Part shown: in pieces, positions 2,890-33,539 of the stretch
Position numbering within the stretch: position 1 is the first letter of the stretch
Layout of the letters: each line of letters starts with the position of its first letter
DNA from: a virus
Taxonomy: Duplodnaviria; Heunggongvirae; Uroviricota; Caudoviricetes
Reading direction: 5' to 3' (one strand)
Virus record (IMG/VR): IMGVR_UViG_2609459819_000001
Location: 1-42,054 of that record
Length of the DNA: 42,054 nt
Notes under the pieces: model-generated
What the model saw: only the letters and a program-made list of their open reading frames with translations
The model's database searches: none
What the model was told of the DNA's origin: nothing
Made by a program: the position numbers and the translations under genes

Positions 2890-3243
2890 TTATGCCTCGC
2901 TTGTTACAGTCGTCTGGCCGTAGATTGTGTCAATGGAGGAAGTGAAGGTGACGCGACGGCTGGTGCCGTCATAATTGGTATCGAAGGAAAGAATCGACAG
3001 AACGCCCGGTGTGTCCTGTATGCGTTCACGTATAGCCAGGATGTAGACGTCAGATCGCTGTTTACCAAGCACCGACTGAACATACGGCGTGCCTTCCGTC
3101 AGATCGAGAAACCACTGACCGCGCCACAGCTCGAAGCGGGTTTTTACTGCCTGGGCGACACATTCCGGACTGTCGATAAGGAAAGTATCGTCACCCTGCC
3201 CGAAAGTGTAATCACCGTCGGCGTCTTCACGTCTGTATCGCAT
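2890..3243 (-). CDS. Small baseplate protein (gpW / Mu gp46 position)
   Basis: 117-aa ORF immediately upstream of J-like gene. Confidence 0.4.
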   Translation of the reverse strand: MRYRREDADGDYTFGQGDDTFLIDSPECVAQAVKTRFELWRGQWFLDLTEGTPYVQSVLGKQRSDVYILAIRERIQDTPGVLSILSFDTNYDGTSRRVTFTSSIDTIYGQTTVTSEA

Positions 3244-3246
3244 AAA

Positions 3247-3345
3247 TCACCACCAGCGTATAGCGCTAATAACGCTTGACAGACCGAATAAAAAGAACAC
3301 GGCCCAGATGAGGAAGAATTTCCAGTTGGGTAGTTTTTCGCCCAT
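3247..3345 (-). CDS. 32-aa hydrophobic small ORF (MGEKLPNWKFFLIWAVFFLFGLSSVISAIRWW)
   Basis: Manually translated; GGGAG about 9 nt upstream of ATG; one predicted TM helix; below the ORF-track length cut-off. Confidence 0.2.
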   Translation of the reverse strand: MGEKLPNWKFFLIWAVFFLFGLSSVISAIRWW

Positions 3346-3424
3346 GACTCGCAACTCCCGTATCAGTTTGCTAAAATTAATCACATATTCTCCCTTGCTA
3401 TCCTCAAGGTGCAGAAAGTAAAAA

Positions 3425-3451
3425 GCCCCGAAGTGTTAGCGCACCCGGGGC
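3425..3451 (-). terminator. GC hairpin (GCCCCG..CGGGGC) with T runs on both sides; weak intrinsic terminator or RNA stability element
   Basis: 6-bp GC stem 3425-3430/3446-3451, flanked by AAAA (3421-3424) and TTTT (3452-3455). Confidence 0.3.
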
Positions 3452-3471
3452 TTTTGTCTGTTTGGTAGTTT

Positions 3472-4212
3472 TTAATTAGGCGCGGTAGTATTCCCGCTGC
3501 CATTCTGCACACCGCCATGGGTATGCTGGATGAGGCTCTTACCTCCAGCCTTCACATCGTTAGTCACCGTCACCGGCCCAAGCATCGTCGCAGTACCGCC
3601 ACTTTCGCCCATTCCCTGAGACAGATTGCCATTAATCGTTACGTTGCCGTTCAGCGTGATAGTCGGGGATGTGATTGTCGTTCCACCTTCAGCCGTAGCC
3701 GTGAGCTGGCCCGGTGTTTGAACGGTGATGTTATGTCCTGCGGCAACCTCTACGAACGCCGCACCATCATCGGTTCGCAGCTGCGCGGCGCTGGTACTGA
3801 TACCGCTGATTTTCTGTGCTTGCGACTGCGGGCCAACGATGGCGAACGCATCAGATAAGTCATGCTGTCGCGGATCGACGGTCTCCTGAACGCCGCCGCT
3901 CTGCCACCAGAAATCGATGCAACGGTCGGCAAAGATCAGCAGGCACTCGTCGCCTTCTTTTACCGGAAAGGTCAGCGTGCAACCGCCGCCGCGCGGGAAG
4001 ATAACCGGCACATCCACCAGCGGTTTTAATTCGGTGGAGCCATCGCCAACAATACCGCGAAGCGCTACCTCTACTGTGCAGGTAACAGTGTCAGGATCGA
4101 ACGACTGAATGATGCCGGGCATCGCTACGCGCATCTGGGTAGACACCGAATCGGCAATGGCCTGCGCGGTCTGCTGCTCACCGCCGATCTGTGATTGAGT
4201 TGTGATTGGCAT
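3472..4212 (-). CDS. Baseplate central spike protein (gpV / Mu gp45-like)
   Basis: 246-aa ORF; Gly/Thr-rich C-terminus ending LIQHTHGGVQNGSGNTTAPN; position between hub and W-like genes; GGGGG 4 nt upstream of ATG. Confidence 0.5.
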   Translation of the reverse strand: MPITTQSQIGGEQQTAQAIADSVSTQMRVAMPGIIQSFDPDTVTCTVEVALRGIVGDGSTELKPLVDVPVIFPRGGGCTLTFPVKEGDECLLIFADRCIDFWWQSGGVQETVDPRQHDLSDAFAIVGPQSQAQKISGISTSAAQLRTDDGAAFVEVAAGHNITVQTPGQLTATAEGGTTITSPTITLNGNVTINGNLSQGMGESGGTATMLGPVTVTNDVKAGGKSLIQHTHGGVQNGSGNTTAPN

Positions 4213-4223
4213 AAAACCCCCAT

Positions 4224-30585: not shown

Positions 30586-31275
30586 TCACACCATCCCGTT
30601 CGACTTGTTGCGGTTGTACTTGGCCAGCAGCAGCTGGATCGGCGTCGGCCCTTGCTCGGCAGCTGGTGCGGCAATAGCCCGGCGTACCGGCGGCACTGGC
30701 TTACCCTCGGTGACGCGCCTTTCCCACATGTCCAGCAGATCGCCTGCCTCGCGTGCCAGTTCACCATGCGTTAACTGGCGCTCGGTGCTGCGGTGGCGCA
30801 ATTCTACGCAAATGTGGTACATGACCGGCTGCGACCATGGAAATTGCTCGCTGGAGATGAATTCGAACGAGCGGTTACGCCAGTCCCAGTATTCGGCGAT
30901 CACCTGGTCAACGTTGACGCCCAGCGCGCCGCTGCTCTGCTTGCACCAGGCGACGAACTGGCCCGGCGACGGCAGGAATGGGCGCTCCTGGCGGCGGGCA
31001 ATGCGCATGCCGGCATCGACCTGAGCCATGGTGTGGATCCCGTTCTCCTGAAACGCCAGCAGCCACTGACGGCGGAATTCGTTCAGGTCTTCCTGGGTGC
31101 GGAAGTTCGCCATGCTGGCCGGGAACGCGGCGCGCAGCTCGTTGAACAGCTTGTTGAATACCTGCGCCACCTGCTCGACCGGCGCGCACTCCTGGTACTG
31201 CTCTGGCAGGTTATGGGCCATGCGGCTCATCTGCTCGCGGTCGCGGTTACGCATCTGCTCTGCAAGAGATTTCAT
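30586..31275 (-). CDS. P: Replication protein P (DnaB helicase loader), lambda P family
   Basis: MKSLAEQMRNRDREQM...FPAS..RRQWLLAFQENGI..RPFLPSPGQFVAWC closely parallels lambda P as recalled. Confidence 0.85.
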   Translation of the reverse strand: MKSLAEQMRNRDREQMSRMAHNLPEQYQECAPVEQVAQVFNKLFNELRAAFPASMANFRTQEDLNEFRRQWLLAFQENGIHTMAQVDAGMRIARRQERPFLPSPGQFVAWCKQSSGALGVNVDQVIAEYWDWRNRSFEFISSEQFPWSQPVMYHICVELRHRSTERQLTHGELAREAGDLLDMWERRVTEGKPVPPVRRAIAAPAAEQGPTPIQLLLAKYNRNKSNGMV

Positions 31276-32180
31276 CGGATCACCCCATAGGCCCAGTCAG
31301 TGTTGTTGAAGTCCAGATCTGGCTTGACAGCGCGCTGCTCACCTCCGGCGTTACGCTGCATTGTCAGCTTGTCCCACTGCTTACGCAGGCTTTCGGGACT
31401 CAGGATGTTGGTCTGCCAGAAGTGGTGTTTGCTAGCCCAGTCATACAGCGCGCAGATGTCCTGGTGCGACCGGTTGTCTATCTGGCGCATCAGGCGAACA
31501 GTGTTAGACCAGGAGGTCATGTCCGGGGCTTTGCAGGTTGGGTTAATCAGCTTCACCCTGGAGGAAATCCACTTAGCTGTCTCGAGGTCTTCAGCAGAGC
31601 CCCACTTCGCACCGGATGGTGTGTAGACCGCAGCTTCAGGATGAGTTGATAAAAATTTCTTCAGACGTGCGTCAGAGGATTCGTCAGAATTCTCTGACGA
31701 AGATCTTTTAATACTGTTCTTGTTCTTGTATTGGGTGTCTACCGTTTTCGGGAAGGTTATTCCTGATTTCGGGAAGGATTTTCCCGTTTTCGGGAATTTT
31801 CTTCCCGTTTCCGGTTTGTCTAAAATCCATGCTGAAAGGTCAGTGTTTACACCGACGATTTTCATCATGCCCTGCTTCTGTGAAAAGATGATTTTGCGTT
31901 CTGCGAGAGACTTAAGCGCGTCCGATACATGCGTATCGCTCAGGCCCGTAAGCTCGGCAATAACCGTATTTGTCACGCGGTCCTGTTTCTTGTTCCAGCC
32001 GTAGGTAAGCCAGATCACCGCCTCAAAACATTGCCATTCCCGGCCTGACAGTCTCAGGCGAGGCTTAAGCTGTTGGATCTCGTTAGCGACCTTGGTATAC
32101 CCGTTCGACAGGTCGGCCATACGACCTCCCGGTTGTTCGGTTTTATTTGGGAAATTGATTATTTCAGCGGTGTTTGACAT
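31272..32180 (-). CDS. O: Replication initiator O (lambda O family, N-terminal iteron-binding domain)
   Basis: Start MSNTAEIINFP (lambda O: MTNTAKILNF); contains iteron-encoded FPKTGKSFPKSGITFPKT linker. Confidence 0.8.
   Translation of the reverse strand: MSNTAEIINFPNKTEQPGGRMADLSNGYTKVANEIQQLKPRLRLSGREWQCFEAVIWLTYGWNKKQDRVTNTVIAELTGLSDTHVSDALKSLAERKIIFSQKQGMMKIVGVNTDLSAWILDKPETGRKFPKTGKSFPKSGITFPKTVDTQYKNKNSIKRSSSENSDESSDARLKKFLSTHPEAAVYTPSGAKWGSAEDLETAKWISSRVKLINPTCKAPDMTSWSNTVRLMRQIDNRSHQDICALYDWASKHHFWQTNILSPESLRKQWDKLTMQRNAGGEQRAVKPDLDFNNTDWAYGVIR
31740..31816. repeat. Origin iterons: four direct repeats (core TTTTCGGGAA) at 21-bp spacing, adjacent AT-rich segment
   Basis: Cores at 31745, 31766/7, 31787, 31807; each part of a TTCCCG..CGGGAA inverted repeat; inside the O gene as in lambda ori. 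Confidence 0.6.
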
Positions 32181-32189
32181 ACTGTTCTC

Positions 32190-32257
32190 CGCAATTACGC
32201 CCTGTTTTTGCACCTGAAAGCCGTTGGTGTTCGAGCACCGCGGCTTTCGCCATTTTT
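32190..32257 (+). ncRNA. oop-like antisense small RNA (predicted, about 70 nt)
   Basis: Plus-strand promoter TTGATT(32155-60)-17 nt-CATACT(32178-83) and plus-strand terminator GAAAGCCG..CGGCTTTC + TTTTT (32216-32257); antisense to the O start / cII-position gene 3' end. Confidence 0.35.
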
Positions 32258-32264
32258 GAACCGG

Positions 32265-32804
32265 TCATATAACCCCCAGCATAATCTGCACCATTTCCAT
32301 CAACGGACCGGTTAACCCAGGGTCAACGCGATACATCTCCACGATCCCCTCGCTCAACTCTTTCAGCTTCTGATGACGTGGCGCATCCATTGCGACAGCA
32401 ATCTTCGCTTCGCTGGTTTCCTTCCCCAGCCTTGCCAGACGAGCCATTACGTTGTCTTCTGGTAGCAGACGATTGCGGTATTCAATCGGCAGGACAGCGA
32501 GGATTGCCGGCGTCAGCTGGCGAACGTTTTCGCGGTACCGTTCGCTGTTGAAATGGTTATCCAGAAAGCGGAAAAGCTTCTGACGCTGTCGGCTGAGGTC
32601 ATCAGGGAAAGTGATCTCGTCTCCCCCTTGAGCCTGGTACTCTTCGATGATCAGAGCAGAAACGACATCCTGACCATCTACACCCGCCCACGCACGAACG
32701 GCATCGCGGATCTGGTCATGTTTATCTACCGAGACAGGTTGATTGCGATTTATCATCGCAGCCGTTTGATATCCGCTATTTTGATGAAGTGATAGTGACT
32801 GCAT
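32265..32804 (-). CDS. cII-position regulatory protein (YdaT-like?)
   Basis: 179-aa ORF directly downstream of cro-like gene; YdaT-like assignment by position (Rac ydaS-ydaT arrangement), low certainty. Confidence 0.35.
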   Translation of the reverse strand: MQSLSLHQNSGYQTAAMINRNQPVSVDKHDQIRDAVRAWAGVDGQDVVSALIIEEYQAQGGDEITFPDDLSRQRQKLFRFLDNHFNSERYRENVRQLTPAILAVLPIEYRNRLLPEDNVMARLARLGKETSEAKIAVAMDAPRHQKLKELSEGIVEMYRVDPGLTGPLMEMVQIMLGVI

Positions 32805-32806
32805 GG

Positions 32807-33040
32807 TTATGCCCTCGCTTCCTGAGCCGGTAATCCATCCGTAGGGTTGAGGTACAAATCAGGGCGTAACTCATGTGGAGTTACACCTGTAGCATTGAAA
32901 ATAGGAATGACACGGTTAGCCGGTACGAATCCATTGTCACGGTGACGCCAGTGACTGACCGTCATTGGGGATACATTGAGCTTTTCTGCTAAACGGGTTG
33001 CACCCCCTACGATGCATATTGCTTTATCAAGTGCTTTCAT
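32807..33040 (-). CDS. cro: Cro-like HTH regulator (YdaS/Cro family)
   Basis: 77 aa from internal ATG 33040 (MKALDKAICIVGGATRLAEKLNVSPMTVSHW...); GGAG 6 nt upstream; divergent from the repressor gene. Confidence 0.55.
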   Translation of the reverse strand: MKALDKAICIVGGATRLAEKLNVSPMTVSHWRHRDNGFVPANRVIPIFNATGVTPHELRPDLYLNPTDGLPAQEARA

Positions 33041-33143: not shown

Positions 33144-33539
33144 ATGAGAAAAAACACACACCAAACAGATAACCCGCAGGTTCGGCGGTTAAATGAAATC
33201 ATCGAGAAGAAGCGCATATCCAAAGCGGATATAGCGAGAATCTGTGGTGTGAGCGCACAATCAGTCAACAACTGGTTTGTCAGAGGAGCGATAGGAAAAA
33301 GCTCAGCAATAAAACTTGCCGATGCGCTAGGCGTAAGTCTTGAGTGGGTTCTAGGTCAGGACGTGGATGCTAAGAACGGTTTGAGACACGACGAACGGAG
33401 ACTGTTGGAACTCTATAATCAACTCCCAAACGAAGAAGAACAACAGAACATGTTGCGGATCGTATCTCTACGGTTGAAAGAACTCGATGAACTGTACGCC
33501 AAGTACATGGGACGGCGGATTAAGGGCGATGCCGAGTAA
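33144..33539 (+). CDS. Phage repressor, HTH XRE family (cI-like but without peptidase S24 domain)
   Basis: 131-aa ORF divergent from cro; HTH-like region ISKADIARICGVSAQSVNNW; no Ala-Gly / Ser-Lys autocleavage region visible. Confidence 0.6.
   Translation: MRKNTHQTDNPQVRRLNEIIEKKRISKADIARICGVSAQSVNNWFVRGAIGKSSAIKLADALGVSLEWVLGQDVDAKNGLRHDERRLLELYNQLPNEEEQQNMLRIVSLRLKELDELYAKYMGRRIKGDAE

What the first reader, a model, noticed from the sequence alone, without database searches (positions are those of the whole stretch)
32155..32257. oop-like antisense RNA between the cII-position gene and O
On the strand opposite to cro/O there is a sigma70-like promoter (TTGATT-17-CATACT) overlapping the O start codon, and about 70 nt downstream a long GC-rich hairpin followed by T5. 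This is a textbook intrinsic terminator, but on the plus strand only. Lambda has the oop antisense RNA at the equivalent position; here it would be antisense to the O translation-initiation region.
Basis: partly seen in the sequence, partly recalled or inferred. Interest (0 to 1): 0.5.

Follow-up and report, generated by a model that had tools for sequence, protein, structure and literature searches.

The report
OOP-type antisense RNA gene upstream of O
Between the CII-like regulator gene and the replication gene O of this lambda-like phage lies a small antisense RNA gene, the counterpart of lambda OOP RNA and phi80 M3 RNA; it is a well-supported but expected feature of such phages.

Summary
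On the + strand, TTGATT (32155-32160), a 17-nt spacer and CATACT (32178-32183, preceded by TGn) overlap the O start codon. A strong hairpin (32215-32249) and T5 (32253-57) follow.

The promoter match alone is no better than chance. It is, however, base-for-base the promoter in front of the annotated M3 RNA of phage phi80, and it has the same layout as lambda p_o. By analogy the RNA starts at G32191 and is about 67 nt long (32191-32257).

The same two-hairpin RNA occurs in all 80 related viral contigs, in 28 enterobacterial genomes and in Salmonella Gifsy-1 and Gifsy-2. It sits next to many different replication modules. In these relatives, 7-10 of 17 base pairs show compensatory changes. G-U pairs occur almost only on the + strand (72 versus 1), so selection acts on the antisense RNA.

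Differences from lambda OOP:
- There is no sequence similarity.
- The RNA stops 7 nt short of the ydaT-like stop codon, as M3 stops short of phi80 cII.
- Its 5' end abuts the O Shine-Dalgarno rather than covering it.
- The U-run lies 3-4 nt from the stem, after a conserved R-C-C.

Verdict: a new member of a known kind. Transcription and function are inferred, not shown.

The parts
32155..32160 (+). -35 hexamer TTGATT of the p_o-type promoter
   Evidence: Read. Identical in phi80 upstream of the annotated M3 RNA. Lambda p_o has TTGAGT with the same 17-nt spacing.
32175..32183 (+). Extended -10: TGA then CATACT (32178-32183). The CAT is the complement of the O start codon.
   Evidence: In 44 related loci the hexamer is CATACT (24), CATAAT (19) or CATTAT (1), and TG precedes it in 39.
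32191..32257 (+). Predicted 67-nt antisense RNA. The start at G32191 is inferred by analogy with phi80 M3 and lambda OOP; the end is the last U of the U-run.
   Evidence: Fold -27.1 kcal/mol, z -4.8. Covariance model R1 scores 93 bits on 32185-32257 +. No ATG inside.
32191..32211 (+). 5' hairpin (GCAA...UUGC in the window; longer GUAAUU/AAUUAC in relatives)
   Evidence: RNAalifold helix 1. Compensatory CG to UA, GC or AU changes at alignment columns 9/29.
32215..32249 (+). GC-rich terminator hairpin (10 bp, bulge, 5 bp, tetraloop)
   Evidence: 6-7 of its 13 pairs show compensatory changes. Pairs in 575 of 576 cells on the + strand, 504 of 576 on the minus strand.
32250..32257 (+). 3' tail CCA + U5. 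An R-C-C spacer and then a U-run are conserved in relatives.
   Evidence: RCC follows the stem in 64 of 69 distinct sequences; the U-run varies from 3 to 7 and is absent in two loci.
32185..32190 (-). Shine-Dalgarno GGAGAA of O, immediately next to the predicted 5' end of the antisense RNA
   Evidence: Same arrangement in lambda and phi80.
32265..32267 (-). Stop codon of the YdaT-domain gene in the cII position, 7 nt beyond the predicted RNA 3' end

Best explanation
This is a small RNA gene of the OOP / M3 class.

**Proposed mechanism.**
1. Host sigma-70 RNA polymerase starts at a p_o-type promoter whose -10 hexamer overlaps the start codon of the replication gene O.
2. It transcribes away from O, on the strand opposite to the early rightward operon.
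3. It stops about 67 nt later at a hairpin followed by a U-run, just before the stop codon of the CII-like (YdaT-domain) gene.
4. The product is a two-hairpin RNA (32191-32257) that is perfectly complementary to the spacer between ydaT and O in the early mRNA.
5. The most likely action is pairing with that mRNA. The duplex would be cut by RNase III and/or would hinder ribosome loading at the adjacent O ribosome-binding site. Either would lower expression of the CII analogue and/or O and so bias the lysis-lysogeny and replication decisions.
6. Firing of the promoter against incoming early transcription may add to the effect.

**Shown here.** Promoter homology to two phages with known RNAs; the RNA structure, its conservation, covariation and strand bias; and the geometry relative to the flanking genes.

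**Inferred.** That the transcript is made, its exact ends, its target and the nuclease involved.
For: **Promoter**
- The window is 99.3% identical to phi80 up to the -10 hexamer.
- The phi80 record X13065 annotates 'M3 RNA' between cII and gene 15. Read on the antisense strand, the feature starts at the G seven bases after that hexamer and ends at the last U after a hairpin.
- Lambda p_o and OOP have the same layout.

**Structure**
- The RNA folds at -27.1 kcal/mol, z -4.8.

**Conservation**
- All 80 viral contigs found through the YdaT protein carry the element. In 70 it lies directly after ydaT. In 10 it lies after an extra small gene and still directly before the replication gene.
- 28 genomes from about 15 enterobacterial genera carry it, as do Gifsy-1, Gifsy-2, SPN3UB and Klebsiella phages.

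**Covariation**
- MAFFT alignment A1: 7 of 17 pairs are compensatory, 99.8% of cells pair, and the covariation score is 0.265 against 0.127 shuffled and at most 0.055 when partners are slid.
- Wider alignment A2: 10 of 17 pairs are compensatory.

**Strand**
- There are 72 G-U cells on the + strand against 1 on the minus strand.
- The U-run is on the + strand only.

**Promoter and RNA travel together**
- The -10 hexamer CATAAT/CATACT, usually with TGn, is kept next to at least 8 unrelated upstream modules.
- In about 20 of 44 loci its CAT opens only a 13-15-codon remnant ORF.

**Precedent**
- OOP-type RNAs are documented in lambda, P22 and BTP1 (PMC12197685, PMC13397905, PMC7067206).
Against: - No transcript data exist for this phage or for any member of this sequence family.
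- The Gifsy-1 and Gifsy-2 copies are not among the ncRNAs named for Gifsy-1 in PMC7067206. The region appears duplicated between the two prophages, and that paper notes that RNA-seq reads from duplicated Gifsy regions could not be uniquely mapped.
- The promoter is only an 8 of 12 match and is not above chance on its own.
- The U-run is 3-4 nt from the stem, is short (UUUC) in many relatives, and is missing in L086 and L087. Termination efficiency is therefore uncertain.
- Unlike lambda OOP, the RNA does not overlap the coding sequence of the cII-position gene, so the lambda mechanism cannot simply be transferred.
- The strand of the phi80 M3 feature is not stated in the record. I inferred it from the sequence.
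Confidence: 0.72

Rival explanations
1. The promoter matters more than the RNA. Transcription from p_o converges on the early operon and runs away from the origin inside O. It would tune O expression or origin activation by transcriptional interference or topology, and the short RNA would be a by-product kept short by the terminator.
For: [quoted passage not shown] In the present family the -10/TGn unit is retained next to every replication module, even as part of a remnant ORF.
Against: In lambda, replacing 45 nt of the OOP sequence while keeping the promoter and terminator abolished both the antisense activity and the replication-inhibition phenotype (PMC3349717). Here the 5' hairpin also shows compensatory changes, which a by-product would not need.
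Confidence: 0.12
2. The hairpin works in the early (minus-strand) mRNA. It could be a 3' stabiliser of the ydaT message, an RNase III site, or a structure that couples ydaT and O translation. The + strand promoter would be fortuitous.
For: - The hairpin also forms on the minus strand (-21 kcal/mol).
- A sense-strand ORF that starts at an ATG overlapping the ydaT stop runs through the hairpin towards the O start in most variants.
Against: - G-U pairs are tolerated only on the + strand: 72 against 1, and 575 of 576 cells pair against 504 of 576.
- The minus-strand fold is not better than shuffles (z -1.6).
- The U-run is on the + strand.
- The identical promoter precedes the annotated M3 RNA of phi80.
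Confidence: 0.07
3. It is a conserved junction sequence between exchangeable phage modules. It would be preserved because it mediates recombination, with no RNA function.
For: - The hairpin core is nearly identical across many genera while both flanks are mosaic. Homology with phi80 breaks right after the -10 hexamer.
- A mosaic joint inside p_o is also described for a lambda/P22 hybrid (PMC3349717).
Against: A recombination linker needs sequence identity, not base pairing. Yet four or five diverged hairpin versions keep the pairing through double changes.
Confidence: 0.05
4. The region encodes a small protein on the sense strand (34 aa, 32268-32164).
For: The ORF's ATG overlaps the ydaT stop (ATGA) and a G-rich stretch precedes it.
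Against: - Indels that are not multiples of three change the frame after the hairpin.
- The ORF ends at different places, fuses to the next gene, or is absent (L003, L097).
- Stem substitutions follow pairing, not codon logic.
Confidence: 0.03

Closest known systems
Phage phi80 M3 RNA (GenBank X13065 feature 4164..4223; an RNase P substrate according to PMC10731613 and PMC11143913, which cite Bothwell et al. 1976)
   Same: - The promoter is identical (TTGATT-17-CATACT, TGn) and overlaps the start of the same type of replication gene (gene 15 / O, 99.3% identity).
- The RNA lies wholly in the spacer between the cII-position gene and O.
- It is about 60-67 nt long, with two hairpins and a U-run at the end.
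   Different: - The transcribed sequence is unrelated from the base after the -10 hexamer onward, and model R1 finds nothing in the phi80 locus.
- The neighbouring regulator is a YdaT-domain protein, not phi80 cII.
- In phi80 the U-run follows the stem directly. Here it follows an RCC(A) spacer.
Phage lambda OOP RNA (77 nt, promoter p_o, terminator t_o)
   Same: - It lies between cII and O on the opposite strand.
- The -10 hexamer (CATAAT) contains the complement of the O start codon and is preceded by TGn, with a 17-nt spacer.
- The +1 G comes right after the complement of the Shine-Dalgarno.
- It has a two-hairpin architecture.
- Some relatives of the window element carry TTTGTCATAATGACCTCG, close to lambda's TTTGTCATAATGACTCCTG.
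   Different: - There is no sequence similarity in the RNA body.
- OOP overlaps the last 55 nt of cII (PMC3349717). The window RNA ends 7 nt before the stop codon of the cII-position gene.
- Lambda's terminator has its U-run next to the stem.
OOP-equivalents of P22 (63 nt, antisense to c1) and of Salmonella prophage BTP1
   Same: They belong to the same positional class, and transcripts were detected by RNA-seq (PMC13397905, PMC7067206).
   Different: The sequences differ. These RNAs are described as antisense to the coding region of the cII analogue.

Membership tests
OOP-type antisense RNA of lambdoid phages (positional/functional class) | Encoded between the cII-position gene and the replication initiator gene, on the opposite strand | tested here: met
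   + strand 32191-32257, between the ydaT-like gene (minus, ends 32265) and O (minus, starts 32180).
OOP-type antisense RNA of lambdoid phages (positional/functional class) | p_o-type promoter whose -10 hexamer overlaps the replication gene start codon, with +1 just past the Shine-Dalgarno complement | tested here: met
   Direct comparison with lambda and phi80. The hexamer is conserved in 44 of 44 related loci. Promoter activity itself was not tested.
OOP-type antisense RNA of lambdoid phages (positional/functional class) | Short (about 60-80 nt) self-terminating RNA with a 5' hairpin and a terminator hairpin | tested here: met
   Caveat: the U-run is offset by 3-4 nt.
OOP-type antisense RNA of lambdoid phages (positional/functional class) | Complementary to the 3' coding end of the cII-position gene (lambda: 55 nt) | tested here: not met
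   The predicted 3' end at 32257 lies 7 nt before the stop codon (32265-32267). phi80 M3 behaves the same way.
OOP-type antisense RNA of lambdoid phages (positional/functional class) | A transcript is made in vivo and lowers cII-analogue expression in an RNase III-dependent way | not testable with these tools
   No expression data are available. Literature searches found nothing for this family.
Lambda OOP sequence family | Sequence and structure homology of the RNA body | tested here: not met
   Model R1 gives no hit at E up to 10 in the lambda locus L084. Rfam has no matching family.
phi80 M3 RNA | Same promoter and same genomic position | tested here: met
   identity through the -10 hexamer; both RNAs are intergenic.
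phi80 M3 RNA | Homologous transcribed sequence | tested here: not met
   The sequences diverge from the base after CATACT. R1 gives no hit in L002.
phi80 M3 RNA | Cleavage by RNase P | not testable with these tools
   Only a suggestive R-C-C after the helix, in 64 of 69 sequences.
Intrinsic (Rho-independent) terminator | GC-rich stem-loop | tested here: met
Intrinsic (Rho-independent) terminator | U-run directly (0-2 nt) after the stem | tested here: inconclusive
   U5 starts 3 nt (with a closing U-G pair) or 4 nt after the stem. The scan did not list it. The tail is shorter or absent in some relatives.

The most novel reading that the evidence does not exclude
The conserved R-C-C between the 13-15-bp helix and the U-run is not a sloppy terminator. 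It may be a tRNA-acceptor-like 3' end (helix + RCCA; the window reads GCCA). This would make the RNA a substrate of RNase P, like phi80 M3 RNA. Cleavage at the 5' base of the hairpin would release a free antisense fragment of about 24 nt. On this reading, RNase P processing is a shared, selected feature of OOP-class RNAs whose sequences are unrelated.
Probability: 0.1. Interest if true: 0.55.

Novelty: new member of a known kind. Interest (0 to 1): 0.35.

Why it matters
- **Annotation gap.** The element is an unannotated small RNA gene. It is absent from Rfam and from the GenBank records of mEp237, PHB10, Gifsy-1 and Gifsy-2. It is nonetheless widespread in enterobacterial lambdoid prophages, including the virulence-associated Gifsy phages.
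- **Conserved design.** The promoter-over-start-codon design of lambda OOP is conserved even where the RNA body and both neighbouring genes have been swapped.
- **A test case for mechanism.** Because this RNA does not overlap the regulator's coding sequence, it could show whether OOP-class RNAs act on the CII analogue, on O, or through the promoter itself. That question remains debated for lambda.
- **Limits.** The finding does not change the general picture of lambdoid regulation.

Tried and rejected
- **Rfam.** Searches of the whole window, of the local region at E up to 10, and of the Gifsy loci gave only chance hits (RMST_8, PsrR1, RalA).
- **Promoter and terminator scan.** It listed neither the promoter (8 of 12) nor the terminator, whose stem has a bulge and whose U-run is offset.
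- **Named Salmonella sRNA.** I tested whether the Gifsy-1 copy is STnc1380 (68 nt). Positions relative to the tRNA-Arg and STnc2080 place STnc1380 near 3.4 kb of the Gifsy-1 record, not at 40.3 kb. STnc1160 did not emerge as a candidate: the only other paper holding the term is the Gifsy-1 IsrK study, and its position was not checked.
- **Rac prophage of E. coli K-12.** This is the type locus of ydaT. Only 12 nt separate ydaT and ydaU, so the element is absent.
- **Sense-strand small ORF.** Rejected as a conserved protein.
- **tRNA-like T-loop reading of GUUCGAG.** The loop varies (UUCGCG, UUCUAG, UUGGCG, and ACCCCU in Gifsy), so it is not a T-loop.
- **Alternative promoter.** The perfect TTGACA at 32174-32179 has no usable -10 hexamer 16-18 nt downstream (by eye).
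- **Literature.** Searches for mEp237, for YdaT with antisense, and for phi80 with oop found no description of this RNA. Bothwell et al. 1976 (PMC430417) is not held.

Full report
**1. Context**

The window matches phage mEp237 at 99.4% over 31900-32600. Its early region runs on the minus strand.
- A CI-like repressor gene lies at 33144-33539 on the + strand.
- A Cro/YdaS-like gene lies at 32807-33031 on the minus strand.
- A 179-aa YdaT-domain gene occupies the cII position, minus strand 32265-32804.
- An O-like replication gene follows, minus strand 31272-32180. Its ATG is at 32180 and its Shine-Dalgarno GGAGAA is the complement of 32185-32190.

These assignments rest. The finding lies in the 84-nt spacer between the last two genes.

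**2. The observation**

- TTGATT lies at 32155-32160, then a 17-nt spacer, then CATACT at 32178-32183. The CAT is the complement of the O start codon.
- A TG at 32175-32176 gives an extended -10.
- A hairpin spans 32215-32249, followed by CCA and T5 at 32253-32257.

The + strand RNA 32191-32257 folds at -27.1 kcal/mol with z -4.8, and none of 200 shuffles is as stable. The complementary strand folds at -21 kcal/mol with z -1.6 and lacks a U-run.

Two qualifications apply.
- The promoter is only an 8 of 12 match. Sites of this quality are no more frequent in the window than in shuffled sequence: 104 against 124 +/- 7, or 11 against 8.4 when TGn is required. It falls below the threshold of the scan.
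- The U-run is 3-4 nt from the stem base, so the scan did not report a terminator here either.

**3. What makes the promoter credible**

The window is 99.3% identical to phage phi80 from inside gene 15 (the O equivalent) up to the -10 hexamer, and unrelated from the next base onward.

The phi80 early-region record X13065 annotates 'M3 RNA' at 4164..4223, between cII and gene 15. Read on the strand opposite to gene 15, that feature begins with the G seven bases after CATACT. It ends with the fifth U after a 15-bp hairpin. The record gives no strand; the strand is my inference from this fit. M3 RNA is a known phage-induced RNA and an RNase P substrate (PMC10731613 and PMC11143913, citing Bothwell et al. 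1976).

Lambda has the same layout:
- lambda: TTGAGT-17-CATAAT (CAT is the O start codon, preceded by TGT), then GACTCCT, then the G that begins OOP.
- phi80: TTGATT-17-CATACT, then TACTCCC, then G.
- window: TTGATT-17-CATACT, then GTTCTCC, then G32191.

In all three the seven bases are the complement of the O Shine-Dalgarno region. By analogy the window RNA starts at 32191 and is 67 nt long.

**4. Relatives**

- A search of viral contigs with the YdaT-like protein gave 80 loci.
  - In 70 of them the hairpin and U-run directly follow the ydaT stop.
  - In the other 10 an extra small gene follows ydaT. The element lies about 270 nt further on, still directly before the replication gene.
- An exact-pattern scan for the hairpin core found 28 genomes. 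The genera include Leclercia, Enterobacter, Citrobacter, Kluyvera, Raoultella, Buttiauxella, Siccibacter, Yokenella, Atlantibacter, Lelliottia and Escherichia.
- BLAST against phage records found the element in PHB10, SPN3UB, several Klebsiella phages, and Salmonella Gifsy-1 and Gifsy-2.
- In the Gifsy phages the neighbouring regulator is a P22-C1-like CII analogue, not YdaT.

The RNA therefore travels with the position in front of the replication gene, not with one particular regulator. None of these records annotates it, and Rfam has no family for it.

**5. Structure and strand**

- A MAFFT alignment of 34 distinct sequences (A1) gives a consensus of a 5' hairpin plus a long interrupted hairpin.
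  - 7 of 17 pairs show compensatory double changes.
  - 99.8% of cells pair.
  - The covariation score is 0.265, against 0.127 in column shuffles (0 of 500 as high) and at most 0.055 when partners are slid by 1-3 columns.
- A wider, model-fitted alignment of 42 distinct sequences (A2) shows 10 of 17 compensatory pairs. Because it was fitted to the model, this alignment leans towards the structure.
- Counting the same pairs on both strands gives 575 of 576 paired cells on the + strand, including 72 G-U. On the minus strand only 504 of 576 pair, including 1 G-U.

Many of these cells are inherited rather than independent events. Even so, the direction is unambiguous: substitutions are tolerated where they keep pairing in the + strand RNA. 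This argues against the hairpin acting in the early mRNA or as a DNA palindrome.

**6. Promoter and RNA as a unit**

Across 44 loci the hexamer is CATACT (24), CATAAT (19) or CATTAT (1). TG precedes it by one base in 39.

The sequence upstream of the hexamer falls into at least eight unrelated classes. In about 20 loci the CAT opens only a 13-15-codon ORF, for example MTNACTKHQAKGA*, which resembles the lambda O N-terminus MTNTAK. The real replication gene then starts about 45 nt further on. The hexamer is therefore not conserved merely as a start codon.

The -35 elements vary in quality. Homology blocks break within or next to the promoter, as was described for a lambda/P22 hybrid whose p_o has a lambda -10 region and a P22 -35 region (PMC3349717).

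**7. Mechanism**

*Shown:* the geometry. The RNA is complementary to positions -11 to -77 of the O leader. It ends 7 nt after the ydaT stop codon. Its 5' end abuts the Shine-Dalgarno without covering it.

*Established for lambda:* OOP pairs with the cII-O mRNA and triggers RNase III-dependent decay of cII (Krinke and Wulff, cited in PMC7067206 and PMC3349717). The p_o promoter and OOP also influence replication (PMC3349717; PMC12197685).

*Inferred here:* the RNA pairs with the ydaT-O spacer. Cleavage of the duplex would strip the ydaT message of its 3' hairpin and separate it from O. The duplex next to the ribosome-binding site could reduce O translation. Convergent promoter firing may contribute.

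I rate the existence of the RNA at about 0.8, and a cis-antisense regulatory role at about 0.55-0.6.

**8. Differences from the known examples**

- Model R1 finds nothing in the lambda or phi80 loci, so this is a separate sequence family in the same positional class.
- It does not overlap the regulator's coding sequence. This is unlike lambda OOP and the P22 and BTP1 RNAs as described, and like phi80 M3.
- The stem is followed by R-C-C in 64 of 69 distinct sequences before the U-run. The U-run is short in many relatives and absent in two.
- This conserved spacer is unexplained. Because M3 RNA is an RNase P substrate and helix + RCCA is the minimal RNase P determinant, processing by RNase P is a speculative reading (see the novel case).

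**9. Dead ends**

These are listed under 'tried and rejected'. They cover Rfam, STnc1380, the Rac prophage, the sense-strand ORF, the T-loop idea and the literature searches.

**10. Verdict**

It needs small corrections on the extent of overlap with the O initiation region and on the quality of the terminator.

The element is a new, widespread sequence family of the well-known OOP/M3 class. It is useful for annotation and as a comparative test case. It is not surprising to a specialist.

Noticed in passing
window 32164-32268, minus strand: A 34-codon ORF (MTGSKMAKAAVLEHQRLSGAKTGRNCGEQYVKHR) starts at an ATG that overlaps the ydaT stop (ATGA). It runs through the hairpin to 16 nt past the O start. 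In relatives the equivalent frame stops at or near the next gene's ATG, or fuses to it. It is not conserved as a protein but might bridge translation between ydaT and O.
   Followed up: partly
L062, L072, L009, L017 and similar loci, about 45 nt upstream of the RNA (minus strand of those loci): The CAT of the -10 hexamer opens only a 13-15-codon ORF (MTNACTKHQAKGA*, MSEKSAFRKIDGPPL*, MTKSFSKYQVREA*), and the real replication gene starts after it. This looks like a remnant of a lambda-O-like N-terminus that is retained together with p_o.
   Followed up: partly
window 32250-32252 and the same position in 64 of 69 related sequences: A conserved R-C-C (GCCA in the window) lies between the helix and the U-run. 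It resembles a tRNA 3' end. phi80 M3 RNA is an RNase P substrate.
   Followed up: partly
window 3400-3463, + strand: Weak hit of the RNA model (21.7 bits, E 4e-4). The hairpin AAAAGCCCCGAAGTGTTAGCGCACCCGGGGCTTTTGTCTGTTT has an A-run before it and a T-run after it. It looks like a terminator, possibly bidirectional.
   Followed up: no
Gifsy-1 NC_010392 40292-40362 and Gifsy-2 NC_010393 7988-8058 (L115 and L114, 1501-1571): The same RNA family, with a different apical loop (GGUGACCCCUCACC), lies between a P22-C1-like CII analogue and O in both Salmonella prophages. It is unannotated. The region appears duplicated between the two prophages, so reads may not map uniquely.
   Followed up: partly
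L014, L017, L022, L027, L030, L034, L041, L057, L059, L068, about 3040-3300: In ten loci an extra small gene starts 17 nt after the ydaT stop. It is inserted between ydaT and the RNA element. Its function was not examined.
   Followed up: no
window 32174-32179, + strand: A perfect TTGACA hexamer lies inside the spacer of the proposed promoter. No acceptable -10 hexamer lies 16-18 nt downstream, so it is probably incidental.
   Followed up: no
E. coli K-12 Rac prophage, L113 4107-4120: ydaT and ydaU are only 12 nt apart. The type YdaT locus therefore has no room for this RNA.
   Followed up: yes
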